DNA of 64,000 nt from an archaeon BMS3Abin17 (GTDB lineage Archaea > Nanobdellota > Nanobdellia > Pacearchaeales > GW2011-AR1): assembly GCA_002897655.1 (NCBI GenBank), contig BDTJ01000038.1, forward strand, positions 66,689-130,688. The letters run 5' to 3'. Of this stretch, positions 22,961 through 58,163 are shown piece by piece; positions within the stretch are counted from its first letter, which is position 1, and every line of letters starts with the position of its first letter. Under the pieces are notes generated by a model. That model did not search any database, was not told where the DNA came from, and saw only the letters and a list, made by a program, of their open reading frames with translations. Both the position numbers and the translations under genes were made by a program.

Positions 22961-22968
22961 ATATCTTT

Positions 22969-24372: not shown

Positions 24373-24404
24373 GTAATTCCTAAACCTAATTTATATTTAA
24401 AAAA

Positions 24405-24840: not shown

Positions 24841-24922
24841 GGAAATAAGATTTAAATTATAATTTAGTATAGTGGTAGTAATAAATAGGAAGATTTATAA
24901 TTCTTCTATTCTTTAATTCATT

Positions 24923-40437: not shown

Positions 40438-41472
40438 TTACCACAGCCACCATTCTATGCTTGAATCATAGGCATGGTCGCAATTCTTGCAGACAGGAGA
40501 GGAAAAATCAAAATTTAAATGCTGTTTTTGCAGTTCTTTGAATGCTTTTGATTCTCTTAACTTTTTAATATCATCTCCTTTGATTAAGTTTCCGAATTTA
40601 ACTCTGGATTCATAATCTCTGCAGCAAACAACAAACTCTCCTTTTGAGTGAATTACAATGTGCGTCCATAAAGCAGAACAAGTCCATTGCCTTCTTCCGT
40701 AAGGGATGTTCTGTTCTCCGACATACTCTTTTAATGTTCCTGCCCAGTCTGATGGAAAATATGCTCGGACAGAATCAGAATATTTTCTCCAAAAATTAAC
40801 GAAATTTTGTGCCTTTTCTTCATTTTCTTTTAAAATCATCATAGAAATATTTGTTAATGCAGGCTTTCTTTTTTCCTTGTTGTTTTTTAAAAAATACAAA
40901 ACATTTCTTTTGGTATTCTCATAATCCAGACCCATAACTTTGTTATAATCTTCTTCTATGCCATTTATGGAAAAAGTGACTCTTCCAAGATTTGTTTTTA
41001 ATAATTCATCTGCCCTTTTTTTAGTTAATAACGCAGCATTGCTGTAAATATCCACTTTTAATTTAGGATATTTCTTATTAACATACTTTATTTTCTCTAT
41101 AACTCCCTTATCTGTGAAGGGTTCTCCAAATCCATTAATAGTGAGTCTTTTAATATCATAATTTTTCATAACATTATCCAAGATTTTCTTAAAATTCTCT
41201 AAACCCATAACACTTATCTTTCTCTTCATAGTCTTATGGGGGCACATTAGGCATTTTGCATTGCATGCATTAGTTGTCTCTATTTGCAGAATCTTCGGAG
41301 TTATTCTTTCTGCTTCTTTTTTTATTCTTTTCAGGTAAATTGCACCATATAATCTGGAGTTTACAATTCTGGACAAAGGCGATTGATAAAGGAGAAATTT
41401 CTTAAATGGTCTGGCAAATCCTTCTAATTTAAGATAATATCTTGTTTCCTGAATAAAGTTCTTGATATTCAT
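40438..41472 (-). CDS. Radical SAM protein with SPASM-like C-terminal cysteine cluster
   Basis: 344 aa; CNAKCLMCPH (Cx3Cx2C); C-terminal CSALW...VVCCRDY...CKNCDHAY. Confidence 0.75.
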   Translation of the reverse strand: MNIKNFIQETRYYLKLEGFARPFKKFLLYQSPLSRIVNSRLYGAIYLKRIKKEAERITPKILQIETTNACNAKCLMCPHKTMKRKISVMGLENFKKILDNVMKNYDIKRLTINGFGEPFTDKGVIEKIKYVNKKYPKLKVDIYSNAALLTKKRADELLKTNLGRVTFSINGIEEDYNKVMGLDYENTKRNVLYFLKNNKEKRKPALTNISMMILKENEEKAQNFVNFWRKYSDSVRAYFPSDWAGTLKEYVGEQNIPYGRRQWTCSALWTHIVIHSKGEFVVCCRDYESRVKFGNLIKGDDIKKLRESKAFKELQKQHLNFDFSSPVCKNCDHAYDSSIEWWLW

Positions 41473-41545
41473 GGGGTCCTATATTCTGGGGTATATATAA
41501 AATTAACTACATAATTCTTATAAACTAACATAGTTAGGATTTCTT

Positions 41546-42769
41546 ATGAGAATTGCACATATAAATATGTTTTATCTGCCTACTTTTGGAGGGGTGGAGC
41601 AGGTTATGTATGAGTTAACCAAAAAACAGGTTAAAGAAGGGCATGAGGTCCATGTTTTTTGCTGTGACTCAGATAAGAATAAGAGAATAAATGTAAAAGA
41701 AGAAATAATTGAAGGAGTTCATGTTCACAGGTTTCCTTACTGGTTTAGATTATCTCTAAATACATTTATCTGGCCTTCTTTATTGTGGAGGTTTAAGAGA
41801 TACACTCAAAACTCAAAGAATTTTGGTGCCACAAAATCCATGGCTGTTCGTTCGCACAGGCGCGGGGGCGAGGATTTTGTCGGCTTTGATATAATTCACA
41901 CTCATGTATCCGGGCATGCTTACATATTATTTGCAGGAATTCTGGCTAAATCAAAGGGCATAAAGCATATTCATACAACTCATTGTCCTTGGACAGATAT
42001 GTCTTTTAGACCCTGGATATTAAGGCCCTTTTTGTTCCTAAATGAGCTTTTTTTTAACAGATTATCCTTTAGCCTTATTGATAAGATTGTTTCAATAACT
42101 CCCTGGGAAAAAGAAACCCTGAAAAAGTTTACAGAAGAGGGGAAAATAAGAATTATAAAAAACGGAATGGACGATATTCTCTATAAAAAAATAAAAAAGA
42201 ATAATTTCAAGAAGAATCATAAGATAAAAGAGAAAAAATTAGTTTTGTTTTTCGGGAGATTAAATCCTACAAAAGGGCCTGAAAAATTAGCCCTTGCAGC
42301 AATTAACATCTCTAAAAAAAGAAAAGATATTGCCTTTGTTTGGGTTGGACCTGATGAAGGCAAAGCAGAAGAGGTCAAGAAATTAATCAAACCATACAAA
42401 AATATGAAATATCTTGGCCCTCTTAGAGGAAAAGAAAAAATAGCTGAGATGTATCAGGCATCAGATGTTTATGTTCTTCCAACCTATCGTGAAGGATTAC
42501 CTTTAACACTTTTTGAGGCAATGGCTTCTGGGTTGCCTATAGTAACTTCTCCTGTAAACGGGATTCCTTATGAAATGAAAGAACCAGAAAATGGATTTTT
42601 TTCTGATTACGGGGATATTGAGAGTTTAGAAACTAATATATTAAAAATTCTTGATAACCCTGAACTGGCAAGAAAAATCTCTCTTAATAACTTTAAAAAG
42701 GCAAAACAATATGAGTGGAATATTATTCATAAACAATATATGAAAGAGTATGAATCTCTTTTAAAATAA
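41546..42769 (+). CDS. Glycosyltransferase family 1 (GT4-like)
   Basis: 407 aa; FFGRLNPTKG...EGLPLTLFEAMASGLPIVTS. Confidence 0.75.
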   Translation: MRIAHINMFYLPTFGGVEQVMYELTKKQVKEGHEVHVFCCDSDKNKRINVKEEIIEGVHVHRFPYWFRLSLNTFIWPSLLWRFKRYTQNSKNFGATKSMAVRSHRRGGEDFVGFDIIHTHVSGHAYILFAGILAKSKGIKHIHTTHCPWTDMSFRPWILRPFLFLNELFFNRLSFSLIDKIVSITPWEKETLKKFTEEGKIRIIKNGMDDILYKKIKKNNFKKNHKIKEKKLVLFFGRLNPTKGPEKLALAAINISKKRKDIAFVWVGPDEGKAEEVKKLIKPYKNMKYLGPLRGKEKIAEMYQASDVYVLPTYREGLPLTLFEAMASGLPIVTSPVNGIPYEMKEPENGFFSDYGDIESLETNILKILDNPELARKISLNNFKKAKQYEWNIIHKQYMKEYESLLK

Positions 42770-42893
42770 TAAAATGAAAACAAAAAAATTAAAAACTTCA
42801 AGAACAAAGTTCTTGGCAGTCCCAGAAATTCCAAGTATAACAAAAAGAATTTCTGAGATTTTTAGCATTCATTTTTAAGGAATTAAACAAAAA

Positions 42894-44429
42894 ATGAAAA
42901 TAACTTTAATTTCAACATCCACTTACCCTTCTGATCAGGGAATAAGAACTATTTCAAGTGTTTTAAAAAAAGCAGGGCATGATGTAAAAATAGCTTTTAT
43001 GACATTAAGCGAGGATTATTCAAAGAATTATAATCTGTCAGAATTATCTCAGTTAATGAAATTATGTTCAGGAAGCGAATTTATAGGGGTAAATTCTTTT
43101 GCTTCTACATCAAAAAGAGCATCAAGGATAATTAGTTTTTTGAAAAAAAGGCTTAATGTTCCGATATTGTATGGGGGAGTGCATGCAACAATTTCTCCAG
43201 AAGACTGCATAAAAGATTCAGACATTGTTTGTGTAGGAGAAGGGGAAGGAGCAGTTTTGGATTTTGCAGAAGCAATACAGAAAAAAAAGAAGATAGACAA
43301 AATAAAAAATTTATGGATAAGGAAAGAAGGAAAAATAATAAAAAACCCAGTAAGAGACCTTGTAGATGACTTAGATAATCTCCCCCTCCCTGATTATGAT
43401 GTGCAAGACCATTATTTATTGGAGAATGGAAAAATAAGAAAATTTACAGAATATGATCTTGGGGGGCAGATATTTTTCTTAACAGGCAGAGGCTGTCCAT
43501 ATGGCTGTGATTATTGCAGTAATAGTCTGTTTAATGAACTTTATGAAGGGAGAAGAAAAAAGATTTTAAGATGGAATTCCCCTGAATATATTATCAAAGG
43601 GATTTTATTCTTAAAAGAGAGATTTTCTTCTTTAGGTTATTTTGACATAAGGGACGACACTTTTTCTTTAAGGTCTTTAGAGGATATAAAGAAATTCTGC
43701 GAATTATATAAAGAAAAAGTGAAGATGAGATTTAAGTGCTTAGGGGATCCTAAAACAATTACTGATGAAAAAATTAAATTACTCTTAGATGCCGGATGTA
43801 CAGATATAATTATTGGAATACAGGGTTCAGAAAGAGTAAATAGGGAGATATATCATCGAAATCAAAAAGACGAGTATGTATTGAGGGCAGCACAGATTCT
43901 TAACAAGTATAAGGGAAAAATTGCAGTTATGTATGATGTAATTACCTCTAATCCATATGAACAGCCAGAAGATACTGTGGACATGATAAGGCTTTTGCAG
44001 AAAATACCCAAACCATATTATCTTTCAGTGAACAATCTTGTTTTCTTTAATGGTTCAAAGCTATATGAAAGAGCTAAAGCAGACGGAATAATCAAAACTG
44101 AAAAAGATTCTGCAATAAGTCTTAATTATTGGGATAGAAGTGCACATATACTTTTAAAAAAGAAGAATAAATATCTTGTTTTGATTCTCAATTTGATGAG
44201 GGGAGTTGCAACAGAGAATAGATTTGGGTTTATGCCTAATTTCTTAATCAATTATCTGTTAAAACCAGAGAGAATTAGGAGGAATTTGAGAAATGAATCT
44301 CCAACACTAATGGCCTTAAAATTAGTCAGTGTTTTTGATTTAATAAGGGAAAAAATAGCCAAGCCTTTTTACAGATCCTTGCCTTTGAGGTTTAGAATAT
44401 GGTATGATAGAGCAAGATACAGGGTTTAG
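42894..44429 (+). CDS. Cobalamin-binding (class B) radical SAM enzyme
   Basis: 511 aa; N-terminal B12-binding-like Rossmann domain; GRGCPYGCDYCSN (Cx3Cx2C). Confidence 0.75.
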   Translation: MKITLISTSTYPSDQGIRTISSVLKKAGHDVKIAFMTLSEDYSKNYNLSELSQLMKLCSGSEFIGVNSFASTSKRASRIISFLKKRLNVPILYGGVHATISPEDCIKDSDIVCVGEGEGAVLDFAEAIQKKKKIDKIKNLWIRKEGKIIKNPVRDLVDDLDNLPLPDYDVQDHYLLENGKIRKFTEYDLGGQIFFLTGRGCPYGCDYCSNSLFNELYEGRRKKILRWNSPEYIIKGILFLKERFSSLGYFDIRDDTFSLRSLEDIKKFCELYKEKVKMRFKCLGDPKTITDEKIKLLLDAGCTDIIIGIQGSERVNREIYHRNQKDEYVLRAAQILNKYKGKIAVMYDVITSNPYEQPEDTVDMIRLLQKIPKPYYLSVNNLVFFNGSKLYERAKADGIIKTEKDSAISLNYWDRSAHILLKKKNKYLVLILNLMRGVATENRFGFMPNFLINYLLKPERIRRNLRNESPTLMALKLVSVFDLIREKIAKPFYRSLPLRFRIWYDRARYRV

Positions 44430-44439: not shown

Positions 44440-44691
44440 TTAATTAAGCTCTTTTTCTATTTTCTTATGTTTGGAGAAATCATAAGTTAGATTAAATTTT
44501 TCTTTCATAAAAGTTTCATATGTGTGAATCATTGCAATTACAATTCTTTTTTCCTTTTTGGTTAAATTACACATACATGAATTACAATTAGGACATTTAA
44601 AATCTCCACATTTAGGGCATTCTATTGGCTTCCTTGATTTTGAAAACCATTCAAGACATTTAAAACATCTTACTTTTTTTGGGCTACACAT
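44440..44691 (-). CDS. Cysteine-rich zinc-finger protein, hypothetical
   Basis: Start trimmed to internal Met to reduce overlap with queC-like gene; CFKC...CPKC...CPNC. Confidence 0.35.
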   Translation of the reverse strand: MCSPKKVRCFKCLEWFSKSRKPIECPKCGDFKCPNCNSCMCNLTKKEKRIVIAMIHTYETFMKEKFNLTYDFSKHKKIEKELN

Positions 44692-45403
44692 TTTTATAGA
44701 TACTAGAATCTTTAATGTTTGAGAATTTAAATGCTTTTTTTCTTGATTTACATCCCCCGCATATTCCACAGTGAATTGGAATTGTTTTATTCTTTATTTT
44801 CTTAAAACCCCCTCCAACATAACAGCTATATGTATCTCCCAGATTTATTCTTAATTTCTTTGACAATTCAATCAAATCTTCTTTTTCTTTATTTAGAAAG
44901 GGCGCAACAAACTTCAAATTTCCTTTTTGAGTGCAAAATTCTGCTGTTTTATTCATTTGTTTTAAGAATTCAGGAGTTGTATCCTTAAATTGCAGCTCTC
45001 CCTCGTGCTTTATTGCAATATAGACATCATTTTTTTCTTTTTTGGAAATAAATTTAGATTCTGCAATTGCCAGGCCAACTAATAAGAATATAGAGTTCCT
45101 GCAAGGGACATACCAGGAGATTAATTCCTCCTTTTCTTTTATCTTTTTTAATTTTTCTTCACTTATTTTTTTATTTATCAAAGAAGTGCTTATTTCTCCA
45201 AGCCATCTAACATTAATTATCTTTAATTTAGAACCAAGCTTTTTTGCAGTTTTTCTAGCACAAAAAAGTTCCTCTTTTAGGGATTTTTGATTGTAATCCA
45301 GAAAAATAAGCTCAATATCCCTGATTTTCTTTACCTTCCTGAGGTAATATGCCAGAGTTACACTATCTAAACCCCCAGAAGTTAAGACCATTGCTTTACT
45401 CAT
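44684..45403 (-). CDS. queC: 7-cyano-7-deazaguanine synthase QueC-like PP-loop ATPase
   Basis: 239 aa; PP-loop SGGLDS at N-terminus; TYSCY motif and C-terminal HCGICGGC zinc site typical of QueC. Confidence 0.7.
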   Translation of the reverse strand: MSKAMVLTSGGLDSVTLAYYLRKVKKIRDIELIFLDYNQKSLKEELFCARKTAKKLGSKLKIINVRWLGEISTSLINKKISEEKLKKIKEKEELISWYVPCRNSIFLLVGLAIAESKFISKKEKNDVYIAIKHEGELQFKDTTPEFLKQMNKTAEFCTQKGNLKFVAPFLNKEKEDLIELSKKLRINLGDTYSCYVGGGFKKIKNKTIPIHCGICGGCKSRKKAFKFSNIKDSSIYKNV

Positions 45404-45463
45404 ATATTCAAGTGTTTTGTTCTGTATAAAAAACTTTATATAAGTGGATATTACTAATATTTC

Positions 45464-45667
45464 ATGGCAAAGAAAAAGGCTTCAGAATTAAAAGAAGGAG
45501 ATATAATCTCTATATATGGGGAAAAGTCAGTTGTTAAGAAGATAGAGACTTCTGGAAAGGGTATTAAGCAGGGAAAAGTTAAATGTAGAATTGAGACAGA
45601 ATCTTTAGGAGATAAAAGCCAAAAGGTAATCATAAGATTAGCAGACGATATTCTTGATGTGGAATAA
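45464..45667 (+). CDS. Small hypothetical protein (possible beta-barrel)
   Basis: 67 aa; start 3 nt before next gene. Confidence 0.35.
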   Translation: MAKKKASELKEGDIISIYGEKSVVKKIETSGKGIKQGKVKCRIETESLGDKSQKVIIRLADDILDVE

Positions 45668-45669
45668 AA

Positions 45670-46572
45670 ATGATTAATATAATTATCACTTCTTATGGGG
45701 AGCCTAAGGCAACTGCAAAAGCAATTGATAGTTTCTTGAAACAGGATATTAAAGAGAGGTTCAGGATTACAGTTATAGATCCTTTTCCCAAAATAGAGGA
45801 ATTTCTTAAGAAAAGATATGGGGGGAAAGTAGATTTCTTTTTAGACCCTGGAGAAGGAAAGAGCTATGCTTTAAATCTGTTTTTAGAGCAAATATATTCT
45901 AAAAACGAGCAGGATATTATAATTCTCACAGATGGAGATGTTTATGTCTCAGAGAATGCAGTAAAGGAGATTGTCAGGGAATTCAAGGATAAGAAAGTTG
46001 GATGTGTTACAGGAAAACCAACGTTATTAAATCCAAGAGATAATTTTTTTGGTTATGCTTCTCATGTCGCTTTTGGAGGGGTAGACAATGTAAGAAAGAA
46101 GTTATCCAAAAAAGAGAAATTTCTTGAGTGTTCTGGTTATCTGTTTGCTATTAGAAATGGAGTTTTACAAGGGTTTCCTTTGGAAACTTCAGAAGATGCT
46201 ATAATTTCATATTTGTTCTGGAAAAAAGGATATAAGATAAAATATCTCCCTCAAGTTGATGTTTATGTGCTAAATCCTCAAAACTGGAAAGACTTTAAAT
46301 TACAAAAAATTAGGAATATCAAAGGGCATGAAAACCTAAATAAAATTGCTCCAGATATGCCGAGGACAAAATCATTCTTAAATGAAGTTAAAGGAACATG
46401 GTTTGCATTAACTTATCCTAAAAATATAAGGGAAATTTTATTTACAATACCTTTATTTCTAACGAGATTATATCTATATATAAATGCATTTTATAATATC
46501 AAATTCAAAAAACAAGAATATTCTGATGGCTGGAGGGCAATAGAAACAGAATCAACAAAACCTCTGGATTAA
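45670..46572 (+). CDS. Glycosyltransferase family 2
   Basis: 300 aa; MINIIITSYGEP..., DGD motif (LTDGDVY). Confidence 0.7.
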   Translation: MINIIITSYGEPKATAKAIDSFLKQDIKERFRITVIDPFPKIEEFLKKRYGGKVDFFLDPGEGKSYALNLFLEQIYSKNEQDIIILTDGDVYVSENAVKEIVREFKDKKVGCVTGKPTLLNPRDNFFGYASHVAFGGVDNVRKKLSKKEKFLECSGYLFAIRNGVLQGFPLETSEDAIISYLFWKKGYKIKYLPQVDVYVLNPQNWKDFKLQKIRNIKGHENLNKIAPDMPRTKSFLNEVKGTWFALTYPKNIREILFTIPLFLTRLYLYINAFYNIKFKKQEYSDGWRAIETESTKPLD

Positions 46573-46943
46573 GGGTGTTTTGATTTTAATTCTAAAATAG
46601 ACTCAGGGAAATTATAATTAAGTCTGAGGTATCTTCCGTCCTCATCCCTTAAACTGGCCATATTTACTACAGGTTCTTTCCCACACATTTTAATAAGTTC
46701 CTTTACTTTTGAATTGTCAGGATTATATAACACATAAACTAAATGAGATTCTGGTTCAGGTATAAATTCTGGTTCCATCTCTCCTAGAACAGCAATATCT
46801 GAAGGGATTATCTTCACTGAACTATAAATACCGTTGGCACACTCTAAAGATAAGTTAGATAATTCTTTATCAAAACCTGCTTTTTCAATTATCTGCAAAA
46901 CAACATACCCAGAATCCCTAAATTTTTGATGCAAACTTTTCAT
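46569..46943 (-). CDS. Hypothetical protein
   Basis: 124 aa ORF. Confidence 0.35.
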   Translation of the reverse strand: MKSLHQKFRDSGYVVLQIIEKAGFDKELSNLSLECANGIYSSVKIIPSDIAVLGEMEPEFIPEPESHLVYVLYNPDNSKVKELIKMCGKEPVVNMASLRDEDGRYLRLNYNFPESILELKSKHP

Positions 46944-47000
46944 TAATAATCTATCTCAAATTTAGTTTAAAAGAATTATTGTGATGGGAAAAATATGGAT

Positions 47001-47426
47001 TTAATCCATTACTTCTTTTAATTGTTCTAATTCTTTTTTTAATTCATCAATTGACTCAACAATTTTAACTGCCCCCGCAATCACTGCACTTATATCTGAA
47101 ATAGACTCATTTATTTTTCTGTCTGTTTTTAATCCAACAACCTTTTTACCAAGGGCTTGAGCATAACCCATTTCCCATGCTGTTCCTGCCCCGACACAAA
47201 TGCCATTTAATACACCAATCATTGCATCACAGATATAGAGCTCTTCAACATCTCTTTTAGAAATCCTGTCAATGTCTTTTAATTCTTTGTATAATCCAGC
47301 ATCTTTATGAGGTAGGAATGTATCAAAACCAAATTCCTTGCAGATTTTATCTATCTTCTCTAAGAATTTCCGATTCTCTTCTGTGCATAATGGGCCAGCC
47401 ACATATATTTTCCTTATTTTTCCCAT
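47001..47426 (-). CDS. Nucleoside 2-deoxyribosyltransferase-like (NDT/Rcl fold) protein
   Basis: 141 aa; IYVAGPL...GTAWEMGYAQALGKKVV pattern of the PF05014 family. Confidence 0.6.
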   Translation of the reverse strand: MGKIRKIYVAGPLCTEENRKFLEKIDKICKEFGFDTFLPHKDAGLYKELKDIDRISKRDVEELYICDAMIGVLNGICVGAGTAWEMGYAQALGKKVVGLKTDRKINESISDISAVIAGAVKIVESIDELKKELEQLKEVMD

Positions 47427-47486
47427 ATTAATAATCTATATTAGGCATTATGTAATCTTTTTAAACCCCATGTATTTATCCTCAAT

Positions 47487-48632
47487 ATGGCAAAATGGAA
47501 CACAGAATGCAGGTTTTTTAATGATAAATACGCTTGTGATACTCTTTCTAGCGAGAATTATAAAACTTGTGAAGAATGCAGATTTTCCCAGAAATTCTCA
47601 AAAAAGATTTTAATAATCAAGTTAGGTGCAATGGGGGATGTTTTAAGGACAACCCCTATTTTAACTGCCATAAAAAAGAAATATGGTGAAGAAGCCTTAA
47701 TTTATTGGATGACTTCCCCTGAATCAGCAGAAATTCTTCAGGACAACCCTCTTATTGACAAGGTTCTTCAGTATAATCCTGAGAATATCTTAAGAATCCA
47801 GCAGGAAAAATTTGATATGCTCTTTTCCTTGGAGATAGATACCCCTTCAACATTGCTTGCAAATTTAGTAAATGCAGGTGAAAAACTAGGATATTTTTTT
47901 GATAATGGGGCAACTTCATGCTTCAATAAAGGTTCTGAGGCATATTTAGAGACAGCTTTTTTGAACCATGTTAAATTAAAAAACAAAAGGACTTATCAGG
48001 ACCTAATCTTTGAAGCCTGTGAATTAGACTATAATAAAGAAAAATTAATATTTAATTTACAGGGCAGTGATATAAAATTTGCCAATGAATTTAAAGAAAA
48101 AAATAACATTCTTGACTCAGACAGGATAATAGGCATAAACATTGGTTCAGCAGACAGATGGGCTTCTAAATTCTGGGATATTGAAAAGATAAAAGAATTA
48201 ATAAAGAAGATGCCTGTGAATTATAAGATAATAATTCTGGCAGGACCAAATGAAATTGAAAAACAGAGGAAATTAATTGAAGACCTTAAAACCGAAGGGA
48301 TTTCTTTAATCTCCAATAATCCTAATAATTCTTTCAGAGAGTTTGCAGCAGTTGTTGATTTATGCGATAAGGTTATCTGCGGTGATACTATGATTTTACA
48401 TTTAGCTACAGTATTGAATAAAACTTCAATAGCATTATTTTTTTCAACGTCTCCCTGGGAGATTGAAGATTACCAATTAGTTGATAAGATAGTTTCTCCT
48501 TTGCTTGAGGATTATTTTTATATTAATAGCTATATCCCAGAGCTTGCAGAGAGTATATCTGTTGAGCAGGTTTTAAGCCTCTTAAAAGATGTGGGTTCTA
48601 AAATAACAACAAATAAAAACACTCCAACATAA
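47487..48632 (+). CDS. Glycosyltransferase family 9 (heptosyltransferase-like) with N-terminal cysteine-rich extension
   Basis: 381 aa; ILIIKLGAMGDVLRTTPIL... matches GT9 N-terminal motif; C-terminal ...CGDTMILHLA... region. Confidence 0.65.
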   Translation: MAKWNTECRFFNDKYACDTLSSENYKTCEECRFSQKFSKKILIIKLGAMGDVLRTTPILTAIKKKYGEEALIYWMTSPESAEILQDNPLIDKVLQYNPENILRIQQEKFDMLFSLEIDTPSTLLANLVNAGEKLGYFFDNGATSCFNKGSEAYLETAFLNHVKLKNKRTYQDLIFEACELDYNKEKLIFNLQGSDIKFANEFKEKNNILDSDRIIGINIGSADRWASKFWDIEKIKELIKKMPVNYKIIILAGPNEIEKQRKLIEDLKTEGISLISNNPNNSFREFAAVVDLCDKVICGDTMILHLATVLNKTSIALFFSTSPWEIEDYQLVDKIVSPLLEDYFYINSYIPELAESISVEQVLSLLKDVGSKITTNKNTPT

Positions 48633-50341: not shown

Positions 50342-51346
50342 TTATAAATATCCTTCTTTTTTATAATAGTCTACAGTTTTTTTAATTCCTTCATCTAGCG
50401 AGAACTTTGGTACATATTTCAACACTTTTCTTGCTTTTGAGACATCACTATACCATAATTTTTTAGTCATCCAGTCAATTGTATCATGTTTAAAAGGAGG
50501 ACGAAATCCAAATAACTTTCCTACTAATTCCATAGAAAATCCTGCAGAGACAAAAAAAATCCTTGGAAATTTTATTGGAAGAACTTTTTTTCCCATAGCT
50601 TTTTCCATAGAAGACCTAATTTCATTTATACTGTAATGTTCCCCATTTGTAATATGATATGCTTCTCCATTTTCCCCATATTTAACTGCAAGTAAGCATG
50701 CCTGGACTAAATTTTCAACATATAAGAATTCCATACATTTTGATTTACCATCTAGAGGAAAAAATCTTTTTTTGACTGCTTTGAATAACTTAAGCATTTC
50801 TACATCTCTTGGACCAAAGACCATTGGAGGCCTTAGAAATACAATTGGCATCTTGAATTTCTTAAAATATTCCAGAGAGATTTTTTCCTGAGCTAGTTTG
50901 CTCCATCCATAAGTATCAACTGGTTTGCATTTGGTTTTTTCATTAACAGCTTCACTACCATTTGATTGCCCAACTGCAGAGACACTACTCATTATAACAA
51001 TTTTCTTTATCTTCTTTTTTTTACATGCTTCTAATAGATTTTTTGTTCCTTTTTCATTTACTTTAAAATATTCTTCCCTAGGAATAGCCATTGGCCTGGC
51101 AATTGCTGCTAAGTGAAACACTACATCCACATTTTTTACAGCATTATCAAGAGATTTTTCATCTAATAAATCTCCTTGAATTATCTCTACATTTAATTTT
51201 TTTAATAGCCCAAGAATCCCTCTTTTATCTTTACTAGAATCTTCTGTTTCTCTTACAAGAACTTTTACTTTATGCCCTTGTTTTATGAGTTCTTCTGTTA
51301 GGTGACTCCCTATAAAACCAGTTGCGCCTGTTACTAAGGCTTTCAT
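50342..51346 (-). CDS. NAD-dependent epimerase/dehydratase (extended SDR)
   Basis: Start trimmed to MKALVTGATGFIGSHL. Confidence 0.8.
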   Translation of the reverse strand: MKALVTGATGFIGSHLTEELIKQGHKVKVLVRETEDSSKDKRGILGLLKKLNVEIIQGDLLDEKSLDNAVKNVDVVFHLAAIARPMAIPREEYFKVNEKGTKNLLEACKKKKIKKIVIMSSVSAVGQSNGSEAVNEKTKCKPVDTYGWSKLAQEKISLEYFKKFKMPIVFLRPPMVFGPRDVEMLKLFKAVKKRFFPLDGKSKCMEFLYVENLVQACLLAVKYGENGEAYHITNGEHYSINEIRSSMEKAMGKKVLPIKFPRIFFVSAGFSMELVGKLFGFRPPFKHDTIDWMTKKLWYSDVSKARKVLKYVPKFSLDEGIKKTVDYYKKEGYL

Positions 51347-52818
51347 GGTAGTAGTGGAGAAAAGACCCATGCAAGATTCGCAGCTGTCTTTCTCATTATT
51401 TTATTTTTTACTAATAATTTAGCAAAGTTTTCTGTAAGAATAGATGCGAGAATTTTCTCAAATTTAGGGTAGTCTTTTCTTTTAGGAGAGTTTCTGCAAG
51501 CCCAGACATGTCCAAGTTGAGCTAAAAATATCATTTCTCTTGAATTATAATTCTTAGTGTATAAAGGAGCATTTCCTGTTTTCGGATTGATATAGTTTAT
51601 CCATAAATCCTCATTTATAATTTTCTCTTCCTTAGCTATATCATAGACTCCTGTTCCAGGATAAATTGTTAGGGCATTAATGCCTATCCAATCAGGGTGA
51701 GTCTCCTTTATGAGCTTAAAAGTTTCCCAAGTTTCATTAGGTCCTTCTTTCAAAGAACCAACAATTAAAAAGTATTTTAAATCAATTTTAGCTTCCCTAG
51801 TAATATTAACAGCATTTTTTATTCTATCAATTGTAATATTTTTCCCCACCTCTTTTAATACTTTATTTGAGCCAGATTCTGCCCCATATTCTATTAAATC
51901 ACACCCTGCTTTTTCTAATAATTTTAATTCCTCCAAATCAACAGTATCAACTCTCGCTTGTATCCTAAATCTTATTGGTAATTTACTCTTTATTAATAAT
52001 TCACAAAACTCAATTACTTTTTCCCTTTTCATTGTGAAAAGGTCATCTGCAAATCTTATATAATCAATGCCAAAATTTTCATAGAGATATTTCACTGTTT
52101 CAAATAGTTTCTTAGCAGATGTATTTCTTATCTTCTTACCCCATGCATGTGTTGTTTCACAGAATTTACAGCCCATTGGACAACCTCTTGAAGTAGTGAT
52201 TAATGATGTTTGATTTACTTTACCTTTAATATCAGGAGGCAATGTATATTTTTTCATAGGAAAAAGATCATAGGCTGGAAAAGGTAGATCTTCAATACTT
52301 GGCATAAAAGGCCGTGAGGGGTTTGCTATTATTTTACCCTTTTTTCTGTAAGTTATCCCTAATATTTTCTCAAGAGGTTTTTTGTTTTTTATCTTTTTAA
52401 TTAATTCTAAAAGAGTTTCTTCCCCTTCCCCTCTTACTACAAGATCAACAAAAGGATAATTTTTGAGAATAATTTCATCTGTAAATGTAGCATGAAGCCC
52501 GCCAATTATTGCAATTATCTTAGGGTTAATTCTTTTTGCTTCTTTAAGTGTCTTTAACGCAGCATATCTATTTTCTGTTAAGCAACTTATTCCAATAATC
52601 TTTGCACCTGTTTTTATAGCAACTTCTGCAGTTTCTTTAATATTATATTCTTCTATTACAGCATCAATAACTGCAGCATTAATTTTTTCCTTCCTTAAAT
52701 AAGCTGCAAGTGAGGCTATTCCAAGAGGAATTCCTGACATTGGAAATTTACTAGTAGTTTTCTTATCCAAAGGAGGATTGATTAAACATATCTCAAAAGT
52801 GTTATTTTTTCCTTTCAT
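51343..52818 (-). CDS. Cobalamin-binding (class B) radical SAM enzyme
   Basis: 491 aa; B12-binding-like N-domain; SRGCPMGCKFCET. Confidence 0.75.
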   Translation of the reverse strand: MKGKNNTFEICLINPPLDKKTTSKFPMSGIPLGIASLAAYLRKEKINAAVIDAVIEEYNIKETAEVAIKTGAKIIGISCLTENRYAALKTLKEAKRINPKIIAIIGGLHATFTDEIILKNYPFVDLVVRGEGEETLLELIKKIKNKKPLEKILGITYRKKGKIIANPSRPFMPSIEDLPFPAYDLFPMKKYTLPPDIKGKVNQTSLITTSRGCPMGCKFCETTHAWGKKIRNTSAKKLFETVKYLYENFGIDYIRFADDLFTMKREKVIEFCELLIKSKLPIRFRIQARVDTVDLEELKLLEKAGCDLIEYGAESGSNKVLKEVGKNITIDRIKNAVNITREAKIDLKYFLIVGSLKEGPNETWETFKLIKETHPDWIGINALTIYPGTGVYDIAKEEKIINEDLWINYINPKTGNAPLYTKNYNSREMIFLAQLGHVWACRNSPKRKDYPKFEKILASILTENFAKLLVKNKIMRKTAANLAWVFSPLLP

Positions 52819-55951: not shown

Positions 55952-56733
55952 AAAGAATTTTATTGACTTTTGATGTTGAAGAATTTGACCTTCCAAGAGA
56001 ATTTAATCAAAATATATCTGAAGAAGAGATGTATGAAATATCCAAAAATGGATTATTTGCAGTGATTAATTTGTTAGATAAGCACAGCATTAAAGCGACA
56101 TTTTTCACAACTTCTAATTTTGCAAAAAAATACCCTAAAATTATAAAAGACCTATCAAAGCAAGGGCATGAGATAGCGTGCCATGGTTATAGCCATTCAG
56201 ATGATTATCTTAACAGCTTATCGAATATAAAAATTGCCAAACAAGAGATTGAAAAAATAATAAAATCCAAGATAAACGGATTTCGGGCTCCGAGATTCAA
56301 GATAAAGAATATTTTAGGATTATCTGAGTTTGGATTTATTTATGATTCATCACTTCACCCAACCTGGATTCCTGGAAGATATATGAATTTATTCAAAAAA
56401 AGAAAGATACACAAGATAGAAGACATAACAGAGATTCCCCTTTCAACACTACCAATTCTCAGGCTGCCTATTTTTTGGCTTGCATTTAAGAATTTTGGAT
56501 TAAATTACGCTAAATTATTCACTAAAATAAACTTTTTATTCTCAGATTATACTATGTTATTCTTCCATCCTTGGGAATTTGAAAATCTAGAGAATTTTAG
56601 AATCCCTGAGTTGATTAAGGGGAAATCTGGGATCAGATTAATTAATCTATTAAAGAATTATATCTTATTCTGTAAAAAAAATAATTATTCTTTTGATACT
56701 ATCTCTAATTATTTCCAAAAATCCTTAAGATGA
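55948..56733 (+). CDS. Polysaccharide deacetylase (CE4/NodB-like)
   Basis: 261 aa; LTFDVEEFD... and ...GHEIACHGYSHSD motifs. Confidence 0.7.
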   Translation: MKRILLTFDVEEFDLPREFNQNISEEEMYEISKNGLFAVINLLDKHSIKATFFTTSNFAKKYPKIIKDLSKQGHEIACHGYSHSDDYLNSLSNIKIAKQEIEKIIKSKINGFRAPRFKIKNILGLSEFGFIYDSSLHPTWIPGRYMNLFKKRKIHKIEDITEIPLSTLPILRLPIFWLAFKNFGLNYAKLFTKINFLFSDYTMLFFHPWEFENLENFRIPELIKGKSGIRLINLLKNYILFCKKNNYSFDTISNYFQKSLR

Positions 56734-58163
56734 CCTATAACTGCCTTGACTCCCCTTAAATTAAATTTTAATTCTCCCCAACTATTTATGCTCTTTAATC
56801 TCGCAAATATATATTTTGGAGTTAGGAAGATAGTATATATCTTTCCACAGATAGCGGCAATTTCTTCTGGTTTAGAATTTTTTGTTTTCAAAACAGACTC
56901 TCTTTGATCAAATCTCTCATATTCAAGAGGATTAAACAAAAACCATTTTTTTTCTTTAGCTTCTTTATGTAAAGGAGTGCCTGGATAAGGGATAAGAACT
57001 GTTGCCTGAAGCAAATCTGCTTTTCCAGATTGCATTAATCTCTTAGCAAGTTTAAACGTGTTCAGAGCATCTTCTTTTGTCTCCCAAGGATAACCAACTA
57101 TCATTGTTAGGTGTGTTATTAATCCTGCACTTTTTGCCATCTTGCATCCATCTATAATATCTTTGATTTTTATACCTTTATTCAAATTATCAAGAGTTTT
57201 TTGATTCCCAGATTCAAGTCCAAATTTTAAGAGCCTAAAACCTGCTTTTTTCATCAGATTATAATCTTCTTGTTTTAATGCTCCAAATCTCATATTGCAG
57301 GAATATTTTATTTTCTTATTATACCCCCGTTCTATTAATCCCCTGCATAAATCTTTTAACCATTTTCCAATCATCAATGTTCCAGAATCATCAAATATTT
57401 CTTTTACATCATATTTATCAATCAACATTCCAATTTCATCCAAGACATTTTTAACACTTCTAACTCTAAATTTAGGATAAAGAGTTGGCCATGCACAGAA
57501 TTTGCATTTTCCCCACCAGCAATCTCTCCCAGACATAATATAAAAATAAGGTTTTCCTATGAGATTATATTCTTTTTCATATAATTTCCATTTTGTCAAA
57601 TCTCTGTCAGGGTAAGGAAGTTCATCCAGATTATGCTTCAACTCAAATTTACCAGAATTAATTATCTTGTTAGCTTTTCTATAGTATATTCCTTTTGGAA
57701 CTTTTTTTATTTTTTTATCTATCCAATCAGCAAGATCTGCGCTCATAAAATCAAAATCTCCCCCGCATAAAACAAAATCTACTTTGGAATTTTTCATTGT
57801 TTCTTCAGGAAGAGCAGTAACATGATCTCCAAGAATAGCAATTTTCATCATAGGAAAGATTTTCTTTAATCTATCTATTGTTTCCCAGTGCTGTTTTACA
57901 ACAGGAGTTTTGGTCTCAAAAATAAATAAGTCTGTTTTTTCTTTCTTAATAATTTCTACAAATTCTTCCCAGTGAATTTTTTCAGCAACACAATCAATCC
58001 AACTAACATCATGACCTTTGTTTTTAAGGAGTGTTGCAGAAGTTCCCATAACAACAGGATAAAAAAAACTAGGATTGCTAAACCACTGAAACTGCCTGTT
58101 TTGCCCGAGGGTGGCTATCCCTTTTTCTGATTCTGTAGGAGGATATCCTATAATGATTTTCAT
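56709..58163 (-). CDS. Cobalamin-binding (class B) radical SAM enzyme, variant cluster spacing
   Basis: 484 aa; B12-binding-like N-domain; DCWWGKCKFCAW (Cx4Cx2C rather than Cx3Cx2C). Confidence 0.7.
   Translation of the reverse strand: MKIIIGYPPTESEKGIATLGQNRQFQWFSNPSFFYPVVMGTSATLLKNKGHDVSWIDCVAEKIHWEEFVEIIKKEKTDLFIFETKTPVVKQHWETIDRLKKIFPMMKIAILGDHVTALPEETMKNSKVDFVLCGGDFDFMSADLADWIDKKIKKVPKGIYYRKANKIINSGKFELKHNLDELPYPDRDLTKWKLYEKEYNLIGKPYFYIMSGRDCWWGKCKFCAWPTLYPKFRVRSVKNVLDEIGMLIDKYDVKEIFDDSGTLMIGKWLKDLCRGLIERGYNKKIKYSCNMRFGALKQEDYNLMKKAGFRLLKFGLESGNQKTLDNLNKGIKIKDIIDGCKMAKSAGLITHLTMIVGYPWETKEDALNTFKLAKRLMQSGKADLLQATVLIPYPGTPLHKEAKEKKWFLFNPLEYERFDQRESVLKTKNSKPEEIAAICGKIYTIFLTPKYIFARLKSINSWGELKFNLRGVKAVIGHLKDFWK

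What the first reader, a model, noticed from the sequence alone, without database searches (positions are those of the whole stretch)
44440..47426. QueC (preQ0 synthase) homolog, a zinc-finger protein and a nucleoside 2-deoxyribosyltransferase-like protein embedded in the glycan locus
44684..45403 has the PP-loop SGGLDS and the QueC-specific TYSCY and C-terminal zinc-site motifs. It is not accompanied by queD/queE or a tRNA-guanine transglycosylase in the window. Instead it overlaps a small Cys-rich zinc-finger ORF and lies 1.6 kb from an NDT/Rcl-fold protein (47001..47426), with a GT2 between them. QueC-type amidating PP-loop enzymes and N-glycosidic-bond-manipulating NDT-fold enzymes are both used in 7-deazapurine nucleoside and DNA modification pathways. 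Their placement among glycosyltransferases suggests either a 7-deazapurine or other base-exchange modification of a nucleotide-sugar, or a repurposed amidotransferase acting on a sugar carboxylate.
Basis: inference. Interest (0 to 1): 0.55.

Follow-up and report, generated by a model that had tools for sequence, protein, structure and literature searches.

The report
Archaeal QueC locked beside deoxyribosyltransferase gene
A normal-looking gene for making the precursor of a modified tRNA base sits, in a whole lineage of tiny host-dependent archaea, in a fixed five-gene block with a nucleoside-exchange enzyme, two sugar-transferases and a half-length translation factor; this most likely marks a scavenging route for the modified base, not a new sugar chemistry.

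Summary
In detail: QueC (44684..45403, -), a Cys-rich 83-aa ORF overlapping its stop codon (44440..44691, -) and an NDT-fold protein (47001..47426, -) are real.

QueC belongs to an archaeal (TACK + DPANN) branch of the preQ0-synthase family. It keeps the residues that bind ATP, zinc and the deazaguanine. In Thaumarchaeota and other TACK relatives its orthologues sit directly behind QueT transporters (24 loci), QueE (3) or the same zinc finger (11). A repurposed sugar amidotransferase is therefore very unlikely.

In Pace-/Woesearchaeota the gene is locked in a block: GT9 <|> NDT >|< GT2-aIF5A(N-domain) <|> QueC.
- Picking loci by QueC: GT2 in 23/23, NDT in 20/23, GT9 in 19/23.
- Picking loci by NDT: QueC in 30/34, GT9 in 46/47.
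- None of about 50 TACK/Hadarchaeota loci has the block.

Genes inserted at the one permissive junction include a YhhQ/COG1738 preQ0-type transporter (three lineages), a QueF-like protein, dNK/TMK-like kinases and a NUDIX.

Best reading (about 0.45): QueC and NDT, with the transporter where present, form a 7-deazaguanine salvage module inside a glycan island. The glycosyltransferases are probably neighbours through shared promoters. I could not search the whole genome for arcTGT, queD or queE. Interest is moderate.

The parts
44684..45403 (-). QueC, archaeal (TACK/DPANN) branch of the 7-cyano-7-deazaguanine synthase family, 239 aa
   Evidence: Pfam QueC 138.8 bits; TIGR00364 119.7, below the 150.3 cut-off. 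Motifs SGGLDS, Y37-x-Q39-(x)5-E45, VPCRN, F139-K-D141-T, K174, C194-Y...C212-x2-C215-x2-C218. Orthologues sit behind QueE or QueT in TACK archaea.
44440..44691 (-). 83-aa Cys-rich zinc-finger protein, translationally coupled to QueC (its start overlaps the QueC stop by 8 nt)
   Evidence: Sequence read; gene call. Homologues lie directly upstream of QueC in 11 Thaumarchaeota loci and directly downstream in 4 DPANN lineages. The family is tiny: 40 cluster representatives in 1.84 billion. No Pfam or NCBIfam family.
45404..45463 (.). 60-bp divergent intergenic region between QueC and the aIF5A-N/GT2 operon, with back-to-back A/T-rich TATA-like boxes (ctgtataaaaaactttatataag)
   Evidence: Sequence. 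The 47-91 nt divergent spacing recurs in related loci. Promoter function is inferred.
45464..45667 (+). 67-aa protein consisting only of the N-terminal (hypusine-loop) domain of translation factor aIF5A
   Evidence: NF003076 aIF5A E=3.4e-6, profile positions 5-66 of 129. A profile of 13 orthologues hits the aIF5A structures 1BKB (3.7e-12), 1IZ6 and 8PUT over the N-domain only. The invariant K35 aligns with the hypusine lysine. Present at about -250 nt from QueC in nearly all DPANN loci.
45670..46572 (+). GT2-family glycosyltransferase (300 aa), co-directional with aIF5A-N with a 2-nt gap
   Evidence: Pfam Glyco_tranf_2_3 57.3 and Glycos_transf_2 47.3 bits. Conserved at -1.1 to -2.4 kb from QueC in 23/23 DPANN loci with enough flank. 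No solved relative by sequence.
46569..46943 (-). 124-aa ORF, a lineage-specific insertion at the NDT/GT2 convergent junction
   Evidence: No Pfam or NCBIfam hit and no tblastn match in any other locus. In other lineages the same junction holds other inserted genes.
47001..47426 (-). Nucleoside 2-deoxyribosyltransferase-fold protein (141 aa) with the catalytic Glu conserved (E85 in GAGTAWEMG)
   Evidence: PF05014 67.8 bits. PDB by sequence: 7O62 2.1e-10, 6EVS, 7M5H. AF2 pLDDT 87.9; Foldseek 7O62 TM 0.78-0.87. Invariant Y8, D42, E85 in 24 orthologues.
47427..47486 (.). 60-bp divergent intergenic region between NDT and GT9
   Evidence: Sequence. The GT9|NDT divergent pair is kept in 46/47 NDT-selected loci.
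47487..48632 (+). GT9-family (heptosyltransferase-like) glycosyltransferase, 381 aa, with a Cys-rich N-terminal extension
   Evidence: Pfam Glyco_transf_9 60.6 bits. PDB 3TOV 2.8e-11. The most constant neighbour of NDT.
42894..44429 (+). B12-binding radical SAM enzyme (511 aa), convergent with QueC/ZnF; a frequent flank of the block
   Evidence: Pfam B12-binding plus Radical_SAM. 47-83% identical copies lie 0.7-1.9 kb beyond QueC in most DPANN loci. The best solved match is only a weak generic hit, OxsB at 6.7e-4.

Best explanation
QueC here is an orthodox enzyme of 7-deazaguanine metabolism, not a sugar enzyme. It is a PP-loop/zinc ATPase that adenylates the 7-carboxylate of 7-carboxy-7-deazaguanine (CDG) and turns it, via the amide (ADG), into preQ0, the base that archaea put into tRNA as archaeosine.

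The 83-aa zinc finger is its translationally coupled small partner. It is conserved next to this QueC branch in two phyla. Its role is unknown, probably regulatory or adaptor.

In Pace-/Woesearchaeota, QueC is fixed in an old, tightly packed block: GT9 <|> NDT >|< GT2-aIF5A(N) <|> QueC.

The NDT protein is a true N-glycosyl-transfer enzyme with its catalytic Glu kept. The genes repeatedly dropped in next to it are YhhQ/COG1738 preQ0-type transporters, a QueF-like protein, dNK/TMK-like kinases and a NUDIX. These say its business is nucleobase and nucleoside salvage tied to 7-deazaguanine.

The most likely working model is as follows. These host-dependent archaea scavenge a 7-deazaguanine nucleoside or base. 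The NDT-fold enzyme frees or exchanges the base. QueC converts CDG or ADG to preQ0. A tRNA transglycosylase encoded elsewhere installs it.

The glycosyltransferases are most likely neighbours held in place by shared 50-90-bp bidirectional promoters and overlapping 3' ends, not chemical partners.

Shown: gene identities, conservation of the block, the contexts of orthologues, the inserted genes. Inferred: the direction and substrates of the NDT step, the salvage logic, and the passive role of the GTs.
For: QueC motifs, compared with the experimentally defined canonical signature (PMC13329287):
- Kept: SGGxDS, Y/Q/E of YxQxHxxE, VPxRN, K165 equivalent, CY plus CxxCxxC.
- D141, F139 and R102 align with Cap9 D117, Y115 and R86, which hold the deazaguanine.

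Context of the same subfamily in TACK archaea:
- QueT family gene ending 17-57 nt upstream in 24 loci.
- QueE homologue directly upstream in 3 loci.
- ZnF directly upstream in 11 loci.
- All 39 invariant columns are shared between DPANN and TACK members.

Block conservation:
- QueC-selected GTDB loci: GT2 23/23, NDT 20/23, GT9 19/23; 0 of about 50 TACK/Hadarchaeota loci.
- NDT-selected metagenome loci: QueC 30/34, GT2 31/34, GT9 46/47.
- Also seen.
- The DPANN QueCs form three deep clades, all with the block.

NDT: PF05014, catalytic Glu invariant, best structural matches are real NDTs.

Insertions at the NDT 3' junction:
- Vut_1/YhhQ at 160-161 bits in three lineages, twice as an NDT->YhhQ operon. 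It occurs nowhere else in the roughly 1.7 Mb of loci.
- NDT->TMK/dNK-like kinase->QueF-like in one locus, NDT->kinase in another, and a NUDIX in a third.

Literature:
- YhhQ/COG1738 is a validated preQ0 transporter with archaeal homologues (PMC5372724).
- Independent precedent: PF06508 'Cluster 4' in Proteobacteria is about 89% adjacent to a PfkB-PF05014 fusion (PMC13329287).
Against: - No genome-wide check. I could not establish whether these genomes have arcTGT, or lack queD, queE and folE. Only the window and +-6-10 kb of relatives were searched.
- The strongest pairings are GT9-NDT (46/47) and GT2/aIF5A-N-QueC (23/23), each across a shared promoter. Both are tighter than NDT-QueC. In L130 and L099, GT9|NDT persists without QueC. 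That pattern could equally mean the GTs are functional partners.
- In one widely sampled lineage YhhQ is co-transcribed with GT2/aIF5A-N, not with NDT.
- Most insertions at the junction are unrelated genes. The QueF-like hit is just below Pfam's cut-off, 26.2 against 27.3.
- NDT could simply be general deoxynucleoside salvage.
- The subfamily lacks the His of YxQxHxxE and the literal YPDC, and scores below the TIGR00364 equivalog cut-off.
- No member of this branch has been assayed.
Confidence: 0.45

Rival explanations
1. Frozen synteny with no functional link. QueC (tRNA archaeosine), NDT (general deoxynucleoside salvage), aIF5A-N (translation) and the GTs (envelope) each do their own housekeeping job. 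They stay together only because the genome is so compact that every junction but one carries a shared promoter or overlapping gene ends, so rearrangements are lethal.
For: Intergenic distances are 47-91 nt at the divergent pairs, about 2 nt for aIF5A-GT2, and overlapping ends for NDT/GT2. All insertions and the two observed break-ups occur exactly at the one convergent junction. The flanks (PMT_2, GT4, rSAMs) are reshuffled while the core is not. Most inserted genes are unrelated.
Against: Rare 7-deazaguanine genes (YhhQ three times, QueF-like) and nucleotide genes (two kinases, a NUDIX) are strongly over-represented among about 16 insertion types. They occur nowhere else in the loci. An unrelated lineage independently pairs a QueC-like protein with a PF05014 domain. 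The block survives to 42% QueC identity.
Confidence: 0.25
2. The whole block makes one product: a 7-deazapurine-containing nucleoside sugar or glycoconjugate, or glycosylates a 7-deazaguanosine. NDT puts the base on a sugar, or exchanges the base of a nucleotide-sugar, and GT9/GT2 extend or use it.
For: Each nucleobase enzyme is paired with a GT across a bidirectional promoter: GT9|NDT in 46/47 and GT2-aIF5A|QueC in 23/23. YhhQ is co-transcribed with GT2 in one lineage. From my own knowledge, not tested here: vertebrate tRNA queuosine is glycosylated by GT enzymes, and actinomycete deazapurines carry sugars.
Against: GT2_300 carries one C-terminal hydrophobic helix, and its weak family matches are to membrane lipid or polymer GT2s such as PgaC, HpnI and NodC. 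GT9 resembles LPS heptosyltransferases. The surrounding 35 kb is an ordinary flippase/GT/epimerase/PMT_2 island. The block contains no nucleotide-sugar enzyme specific to it. GT9|NDT persists without QueC in L130 and L099.
Confidence: 0.1
3. DNA (or nucleotide-pool) modification. NDT transfers 2-deoxyribose onto preQ0 made by QueC, a dNK/TMK-like kinase phosphorylates the product, and a 7-deazaguanine deoxynucleotide enters DNA before replication, for protection from host or viral nucleases.
For: The closest solved relatives are true 2'-deoxyribosyltransferases. NDT->dNK/TMK-like kinase operons occur in L022 and L027, with a QueF-like gene following in L027. 7-Deazaguanines are known in phage and bacterial DNA (PMC6884629, listed).
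Against: The kinase is present in only 2 of more than 60 loci. No DpdA, polymerase or dNTP-sanitising gene is in the block. All known 7-deazaguanine DNA systems are post-replicative transglycosylations.
Confidence: 0.07
4. Protein deazaguanylation. Like Cap9 and QatC, this QueC ligates activated CDG to a protein amine instead of ammonia. The target would be the conserved hypusine-site lysine of the adjacent aIF5A N-domain protein, or the zinc-finger partner. NDT and the GTs would then elaborate the free N9.
For: Cap9 keeps the canonical QueC active site yet modifies a protein, so sequence cannot exclude this. aIF5A-N is the most constant neighbour of QueC and keeps K35 invariant while the flanking GKHG motif drifts to IKQG in the window lineage. 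From my own knowledge: the EF-P/IF5A loop tip is a classic target of unusual modifications. The Cap9 authors note that N9 remains free for ribosylation.
Against: TACK orthologues with identical active-site columns have no such neighbour and sit with QueE or QueT. The Cap9 and QatC targets are flexible N-terminal tails, not lysines. The ZnF N-terminus is part of the Cys motif. There is no evidence of physical interaction.
Confidence: 0.06
5. One reading: a repurposed amidotransferase acting on a sugar carboxylate, of the WbpG/PseA type.
For: Location in a glycan island. PF06508 does contain sugar amidotransferases (Cluster 5, WbpG).
Against: The protein has the QueC zinc motif and the QueC-type substrate residues, not the SGGxDSxY / CxxC(x)6CxC / YDC order of Cluster 5. 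It is orthologous, with identical active-site columns, to QueE- and QueT-linked genes.
Confidence: 0.02

Closest known systems
[quoted passage not shown] 2026)
   Same: Same fold family and length. Shares the PP-loop SGGxDS, VPxRN, the conserved Lys, a four-Cys zinc site with the essential Tyr after the first Cys, and the Y/Q/E of the YxQxHxxE motif. Relatives sit in QueE-QueC operons.
   Different: 27-30% identity. The His of YxQxHxxE is missing and the motif is one residue longer. YPDC is replaced by [F/L/M]-K-D-[T/N]-T. The zinc loop is 13-17 residues instead of 8. There is an extra insert before VPxRN. It scores below the TIGR00364 cut-off. No queD or queE is nearby in DPANN.
Bacterial queuosine-precursor salvage modules: transporter YhhQ/COG1738 or QueT/QrtT plus, in some pathogens, a nucleoside hydrolase
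   Same: A 7-deazaguanine transporter family gene (Vut_1/YhhQ) is clustered, and twice co-transcribed, with an N-glycosidic-bond enzyme and a Que enzyme. QueT-QueC operons occur in TACK relatives.
   Different: The N-glycosidic enzyme here is NDT-fold, not a ribonucleoside hydrolase or DUF2419. QueC, which acts upstream of preQ0, is the retained enzyme, implying salvage of CDG, ADG or an archaeosine-derived compound rather than preQ0, preQ1 or queuine. The setting is archaeal.
PF06508 'Cluster 4' QueC-like proteins of Proteobacteria, next to PfkB-PF05014 fusion proteins (Libby et al. 2026)
   Same: An independent, strong genomic association between a QueC-family ATPase and an NDT-family domain, plus a kinase. 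Compare the NDT->kinase operons in L022 and L027.
   Different: Cluster 4 proteins have a remodelled C-terminal half and a CH(x)5CxxCxGCxK motif. The window protein keeps the canonical-type motifs. Here NDT is a stand-alone 141-aa protein on a separate transcription unit.
Nucleoside 2'-deoxyribosyltransferases (Desulfotalea 7O62, Chroococcidiopsis 8PQR, L. leichmannii) and DNPH1/Rcl
   Same: Same fold (TM up to 0.87). Shares the IYxAGP N-terminal strand with Tyr, the FLPxxD acid and the GTxxExG nucleophile Glu.
   Different: 28-31% identity at best. LDG becomes LNG and DxGT becomes GAGT in the sugar-binding region. Substrate unknown. Always divergently paired with a GT9 gene.
Cap9 / QatC protein-deazaguanylating QueC homologues (type IV CBASS, QatABCD)
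   Same: Cap9 matches at E=1.7e-8 and shares the Y/F-x-D and R-N substrate residues. A small conserved partner protein is encoded next door.
   Different: No CD-NTase, TGT-like Cap10, QatA, QatB or QatD in the neighbourhood. NF041925 QatC scores only 25.9 bits against a cut-off of 280. The protein is full length rather than the minimal Cap9.

Membership tests
[quoted passage not shown] | PP-loop SGGxDS ATP pyrophosphatase motif | tested here: met
   S9-G-G-L-D-S14, invariant in all 14 aligned relatives and in E. coli QueC.
[quoted passage not shown] | C-terminal four-Cys zinc site C(x)8CxxCxxC, with the essential Tyr after the first Cys | tested here: met
   C194-Y195 ... C212-x2-C215-x2-C218, but the first spacer is 17 residues (13-17 in the subfamily) instead of 8.
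[quoted passage not shown] | YxQxHxxE motif (Y35 essential in E. coli) | tested here: inconclusive
   Y37, Q39 and E45 are invariant. The His is absent and the motif is one residue longer, as in the Cap9 Y/FxQ(x)5E variant.
[quoted passage not shown] | VPxRN motif (R99 essential) | tested here: met
   V-P100-C-R102-N103.
[quoted passage not shown] | YPDC substrate motif (Y131 essential; Y131F partly active) | tested here: not met
   F139-K-D141-T in the window; [F/L/M]KD[T/N]T in the whole archaeal subfamily. Only the Asp is kept, with an aromatic or hydrophobic residue at the Tyr position.
[quoted passage not shown] | Curated model scores | tested here: inconclusive
   Pfam QueC 138.8 against GA 22: met. 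NCBIfam TIGR00364 119.7 against 150.3: not met. The same holds for five relatives (111-145 bits), whereas E. coli QueC scores 295.8.
[quoted passage not shown] | Genomic linkage to queD, queE or other 7-deazaguanine genes | tested here: inconclusive
   None in the window or in DPANN loci. Orthologues in TACK archaea follow QueE (3 loci) or QueT (24 loci). DPANN blocks acquire YhhQ and QueF-like genes.
[quoted passage not shown] | Catalysis of CDG -> ADG -> preQ0 | not testable with these tools
   Needs an enzyme assay or delta-queC complementation.
Nucleoside 2-deoxyribosyltransferase family (PF05014) | Family model above the curated cut-off | tested here: met
   67.8 bits against 28.8; PF15891 30.4 against 30.
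Nucleoside 2-deoxyribosyltransferase family (PF05014) | Catalytic Glu nucleophile in GTxxExG, N-terminal Tyr, acidic residue after FxP | tested here: met
   E85, Y8 and D42 are invariant in 24 orthologues. They align with the equivalent residues of 7O62, 6EVS and 7M5H.
Nucleoside 2-deoxyribosyltransferase family (PF05014) | NDT fold | tested here: met
   AF2 pLDDT 87.9. Foldseek top hits are 7O62 (TM 0.78-0.87), 7M5H and 8PQR, then DNPH1.
Nucleoside 2-deoxyribosyltransferase family (PF05014) | Deoxyribosyl transfer between bases (as against hydrolysis, or nucleotide substrates) | not testable with these tools
   Sequence does not discriminate NDT from Rcl/MilB-type N-glycosidase activity.
LOG (cytokinin riboside 5'-monophosphate phosphoribohydrolase) family | PF03641 match / LOG fold as best match | tested here: not met
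   No LOG family in the Pfam output at E<=0.01. No LOG structure among the 50 best Foldseek PDB matches.
WbpG/PseA-type sugar amidotransferases (PF06508 Cluster 5) | SGGxDSxY P-loop, CxxC(x)6CxC motif, YDC triad in reversed order, 300-400 aa | tested here: not met
   239 aa, QueC-order motifs, QueC-type zinc site.
QatC / Cap9 defence QueC homologues | Model score and defence-system neighbours (QatA/B/D, or CD-NTase/Cap10) | tested here: not met
   NF041925 25.9 bits against 280. No such neighbours in any of about 170 loci.
aIF5A (for the 67-aa neighbour) | N-terminal KOW-like domain with the hypusine-loop lysine, plus a C-terminal OB domain | tested here: inconclusive
   The N-domain and the Lys are met (1BKB 3.7e-12; K35 invariant). 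The C-terminal domain is absent in all 58-67-aa orthologues.

The most novel reading that the evidence does not exclude
The five-gene block is one pathway that builds a nucleobase-based hypermodification. QueC would activate 7-carboxy-7-deazaguanine and ligate it to an amine other than ammonia, most attractively the invariant hypusine-site lysine of the adjacent single-domain aIF5A protein. The NDT-fold enzyme would then add a (deoxy)ribose to the free N9, and GT2/GT9 would add sugars. Alternatively the same enzymes would make a free glycosylated 7-deazaguanine nucleoside. Either would be a previously unseen use of the queuosine/archaeosine precursor in archaea.
Probability: 0.08. Interest if true: 0.9.

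Novelty: new variant of a known kind. Interest (0 to 1): 0.5.

Why it matters
If the salvage reading is right, it has three consequences.
- It identifies how the most reduced DPANN archaea obtain the universal archaeal tRNA base archaeosine without a de novo pathway.
- It points to salvage of intermediates upstream of preQ0 (CDG, ADG or archaeosine breakdown products), a route not yet described.
- It gives the NDT fold a role in 7-deazaguanine metabolism, matching an unexplained QueC-like/PF05014 association in Proteobacteria.

The analysis also turns up two uncharacterised, testable items: a cross-phylum zinc-finger partner of archaeal QueC, and a single-domain aIF5A. If instead the block is a single pathway, it would be a new class of nucleobase-derived modification.

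Tried and rejected
1. LOG-family identity of the NDT protein: rejected.
2. Sugar-carboxylate amidotransferase: rejected on motifs and orthology.
3. Defence-system QueC (QatC or Cap9): scores and neighbours do not fit.
4. Riboswitch or other RNA in 44-48 kb: the Rfam gathering scan found nothing there.
5. queD, queE, tgt and queA in the window and in DPANN loci, using E. coli queries: none found. QueE was found only in three TACK loci. This is a weak negative, since only +-10 kb was searched with bacterial queries.
6. Word-indexed homologue search for the zinc finger gave only 5 hits. The exhaustive search gave 40 representatives with no informative fusion apart from rare HTH or OCD fusions of the Cys module.
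7. Solved relatives of GT2_300: none. For the B12-rSAM, only a weak generic hit to OxsB, which I do not interpret.
8. Literature searches for the cluster in Pacearchaeota, or for aIF5A in DPANN, found nothing relevant. The DPANN protein-family paper discusses only the bacterial QueA/QueH/Tgt pathway.
9. Genome-wide presence of arcTGT, or of a full-length aIF5A, on the 647-kb or 158-kb contigs could not be tested with the tools available.
10. orf124 has no homologue or family anywhere, so its reality is unproven.

Full report
**1. What is there**

The window is a ~31% G+C stretch of a DPANN archaeon. It carries archaeal ribosomal-protein, RpoD and SecDF genes. The identical NDT protein is named in GenBank as from 'archaeon BMS3Abin17', and the identical zinc-finger protein as from a Candidatus Pacearchaeota archaeon.

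The interval 44440..47426 holds six ORFs, not three:
- QueC, 44684..45403 (-).
- An 83-aa Cys-rich protein. Its ATG at 44691 overlaps the QueC stop codon by 8 nt. Two GenBank assemblies call it that way.
- A 67-aa ORF, 45464..45667 (+).
- A GT2 glycosyltransferase, 45670..46572 (+).
- A 124-aa ORF, 46569..46943 (-).
- The NDT-fold protein, 47001..47426 (-).

A B12-binding radical SAM gene lies on one side and GT9 plus PMT_2 genes on the other.

**2. QueC is a genuine 7-deazaguanine enzyme of an archaeal branch**

Scores. Pfam QueC scores 138.8 bits, but the NCBIfam equivalog TIGR00364 scores only 119.7 against a cut-off of 150.3. Five relatives score 111-145, while E. coli QueC scores 295.8.

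Motifs. I compared the protein with the experimentally refined canonical signature of Libby et al. 2026 (PMC13329287).
- Kept: SGGxDS, the Y, Q and E of YxQxHxxE, VPxRN, the conserved Lys, and the Cys-Tyr plus CxxCxxC zinc site.
- Changed: the His is missing, YPDC is F-K-D-T, and the zinc loop is 17 residues rather than 8.

These deviations are not peculiar to this gene. They are shared by a whole subfamily found in Thaumarchaeota/Nitrososphaeria, Thermoproteota, Bathyarchaeota, Hadarchaeota, Woesearchaeota and Pacearchaeota.

Substrate contacts. In the Cap9 structure the deazaguanine is held by D117, Y115 and R86 (10.1101/2025.04.06.647259). These align with D141, F139 and R102 here.

Context in TACK members of the subfamily:
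- A QueT-family transporter gene ends 17-57 nt upstream on the same strand in 24 loci.
- A QueE homologue is directly upstream in three loci.
- The zinc-finger homologue is directly upstream in eleven loci.

All 39 invariant alignment columns are shared by the DPANN and TACK members. A change of substrate to a sugar acid is therefore very unlikely. The WbpG-type amidotransferases of PF06508 have a different motif set.

**3. The zinc finger**

It has no Pfam or NCBIfam family and belongs to a very small family: 40 representatives at E<=1e-3 among 1.84 billion. Full-length homologues (about 45% identity) sit immediately before QueC in Thaumarchaeota. They sit immediately after it in at least four DPANN lineages: the window, L004, L095 and L173.

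The Cys module is occasionally fused to HTH domains, which hints at a regulatory or adaptor role. This cross-phylum QueC-ZnF pairing has, as far as my searches show, not been described.

**4. The NDT protein**

- PF05014 scores 67.8 bits.
- By sequence it is closest to bona fide nucleoside 2'-deoxyribosyltransferases: 7O62, 6EVS and 7M5H.
- Y8, D42 and the nucleophile E85 are invariant in 24 orthologues.
- An AF2 model (pLDDT 87.9) matches the Desulfotalea NDT at TM 0.78-0.87, then the Chroococcidiopsis NDT and DNPH1. No LOG protein is in the top 50.

**5. The association is conserved**

Look-ups of QueC homologues at 52-79% identity all showed the same order:

PMT_2 - GT9(<-) NDT(->) GT2(<-) 64-67aa(<-) QueC(->) [ZnF] B12-rSAM(<-)

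Homologues at 47-48% identity from non-DPANN contigs did not.

Forward test. A scan of one genome per GTDB species returned 79 loci. tblastn with the window proteins shows, among 23 distinct DPANN loci with at least 3 kb of upstream flank:
- GT2 in 23.
- NDT within 2.6 kb in 20.
- GT9 in 19.
- The spacing is nearly constant: about -250, -1150, -1550 and -2750 nt from QueC.
- None of about 50 TACK/Hadarchaeota loci has any of these genes.

Phylogeny. In a neighbour-joining tree the DPANN QueCs form three deep clades, all with the block. The TACK and Hadarchaeota sequences form one clade without it.

Reverse test. I chose loci by NDT in JGI metagenomes.
- QueC is present in 30 of 34 loci with enough downstream sequence.
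- GT2 is present in 31 of 34.
- GT9 is present in 46 of 47 with enough upstream sequence.
- Two further NDT look-ups agree.

The two tightest pairs are GT9|NDT and GT2-aIF5A(N)|QueC, each across a 47-91-nt divergent spacer. In L130 and L099 the GT9|NDT pair persists next to unrelated housekeeping genes.

**6. What the variable junction says**

All insertions and break-ups occur at the convergent NDT/GT2 junction. Most of the inserted genes are unrelated to each other: orf124 in the window, HD-like, LigT-like and toxin-antitoxin-like genes, a B12-rSAM plus TrmB pair, and ORFs with no family.

Some are telling:
- A Vut_1/YhhQ (COG1738) transporter at 160-161 bits sits there in three lineages. 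In one it is co-transcribed with GT2. In two it is co-transcribed with NDT.
- L027 has NDT -> TMK/dNK-like kinase -> QueF-like T-fold protein. The QueF-like hit is PF14489 at 26.2 bits, just under the 27.3 cut-off.
- L022 has NDT -> kinase, and L019 has a NUDIX.
- None of these genes occurs anywhere else in all the fetched loci.

YhhQ is the experimentally supported preQ0 transporter, and archaeal homologues were proposed to salvage preQ0 (PMC5372724). Libby et al. independently report that a proteobacterial QueC-like cluster is about 89% adjacent to a PfkB-PF05014 fusion.

Rare 7-deazaguanine genes turning up repeatedly at this one site is hard to ascribe to chance. It ties NDT, not only QueC, to that metabolism.

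**7. Interpretation**

Best supported (about 0.45): QueC and NDT, with a transporter where present and with ZnF as a QueC accessory, form a 7-deazaguanine salvage and processing module of host-dependent archaea. The NDT-fold enzyme cleaves or exchanges the N-glycosidic bond of a scavenged deazaguanine nucleoside or nucleotide. QueC converts CDG or ADG to preQ0 for a tRNA transglycosylase encoded elsewhere.

The QueT-QueC operons of Thaumarchaeota suggest that salvage of a pre-preQ0 intermediate is a wider archaeal habit.

The glycosyltransferases are, on present evidence, neighbours fixed by shared promoters in a compact genome. The substrates and direction of the NDT step, and the absence of a de novo pathway, are inferred, not shown.

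Main rival (about 0.25): no functional link at all, only frozen synteny.

Smaller rivals:
- Pre-replicative DNA modification via NDT plus a kinase (about 0.07).
- Cap9-like protein deazaguanylation, for example of the neighbouring aIF5A-N lysine (about 0.06).
- A sugar amidotransferase (about 0.02).

**8. The 67-aa neighbour**

A profile of 13 orthologues (58-67 aa) matches the archaeal aIF5A structures 1BKB (3.7e-12), 1IZ6, 8PUT and 1EIF over the N-terminal domain only. The hypusine-site lysine is invariant.

Woesearchaeal versions keep S-K-I-G-K-H-G. The window lineage has S-G-K-G-I-K-Q-G. It is always 0-12 nt upstream of GT2 and divergent from QueC. I could not test whether it is the only aIF5A of these organisms.

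**9. Limits**

- No whole-genome search was possible.
- The tree is a quick NJ tree rooted on a distant outgroup.
- Gene calls in the fetched loci are mechanical.
- No member of this QueC branch, of this NDT clade or of the ZnF family has been assayed.

**10. Verdict**

QueC is an ordinary enzyme type in an unusual, conserved context, so I class this as a new variant of a known kind. The sugar-chemistry reading is not supported. A 7-deazaguanine link between QueC and NDT is supported by context. Interest is moderate (0.5), with a small chance of something much more novel.

Noticed in passing
window 45464..45667 (+); orthologues in L003-L027, L045-L083, L093-L173: A 58-67-aa protein that is only the N-terminal (hypusine-loop) domain of aIF5A. 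Its hypusine-site Lys is invariant. It is always the first gene of an operon with a GT2 and divergent from QueC in Pace-/Woesearchaeota. In the window lineage GKHG has become IKQG. A single-domain aIF5A does not seem to have been described.
   Followed up: partly
L009, L026, L029, L032, L036, L038, L040, L044, L047, L048, L050, L052-L056, L059-L061, L064, L068, L070, L086, L089: In 24 Thaumarchaeota/TACK loci a QueT-family transporter gene ends 17-57 nt upstream of this QueC branch. This suggests import of an intermediate upstream of preQ0 (CDG or ADG), which is not a described salvage route.
   Followed up: partly
window 44440..44691 (-); L030, L031, L033, L035, L037, L046, L049, L051, L057, L078, L087; L004, L095, L173: The small zinc-finger protein (C2, CxxC x3, CxC, then a helical YDFS-x-H tail) is paired with archaeal QueC in two phyla. 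It lies upstream of QueC in Thaumarchaeota and downstream in DPANN. The family is tiny. The Cys module is rarely fused to HTH_17, ParB-HTH or ornithine cyclodeaminase.
   Followed up: partly
window 20381..20589 (+): Rfam RT-16 RNA match, 90.3 bits against a gathering score of 50, full length. It lies between a 225-aa ORF and an ABC-transporter ATPase gene.
   Followed up: no
window 22265..25765: 5S rRNA at 22969..23084 (+) and a 127-nt, probably intron-containing, tRNA at 24705..24831 (+) were found by Rfam but not by ARAGORN. ARAGORN's tRNA-Leu(aag) at 24289..24372 (-) is not in the Rfam gathering list. Two LAGLIDADG-like ORFs (22265..22960, 24923..25765) flank the region, and a PfkB/RfaE-like sugar kinase (23231..24235) lies within it.
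   Followed up: no
window 40438..44429, 51343..52818, 56709..58163: The island holds three paralogous B12-binding radical SAM enzymes (511, 491 and 484 aa) and a SPASM radical SAM. The 511-aa copy is a frequent convergent neighbour of QueC in relatives. Its only solved match is a weak one to OxsB (6.7e-4).
   Followed up: partly
window 47487..47600 (+): The GT9 glycosyltransferase has a ~35-residue N-terminal extension with four Cys (C-x9-C ... C-x2-C) ahead of the heptosyltransferase-like domain.
   Followed up: no
window 46569..46943 (-): 124-aa ORF at the NDT/GT2 junction with no family and no homologue in any of about 170 related loci. It is either a lineage-specific gene or not a gene.
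   Followed up: partly
window 32341..34164 (+): A 607-aa fusion of a nucleotidyltransferase-like N-terminal half, paralogous to the preceding 243-aa gene, with what reads like a class-V aminotransferase half. This is judged by eye only and was not checked against any family library.
   Followed up: no
L027 1261..2549 (+): A Woesearchaeota locus with an apparent operon NDT -> thymidylate/deoxynucleoside-kinase-like -> QueF-like T-fold protein, next to GT2 and QueC. It may mark a nucleotide-level 7-deazaguanine pathway.
   Followed up: partly
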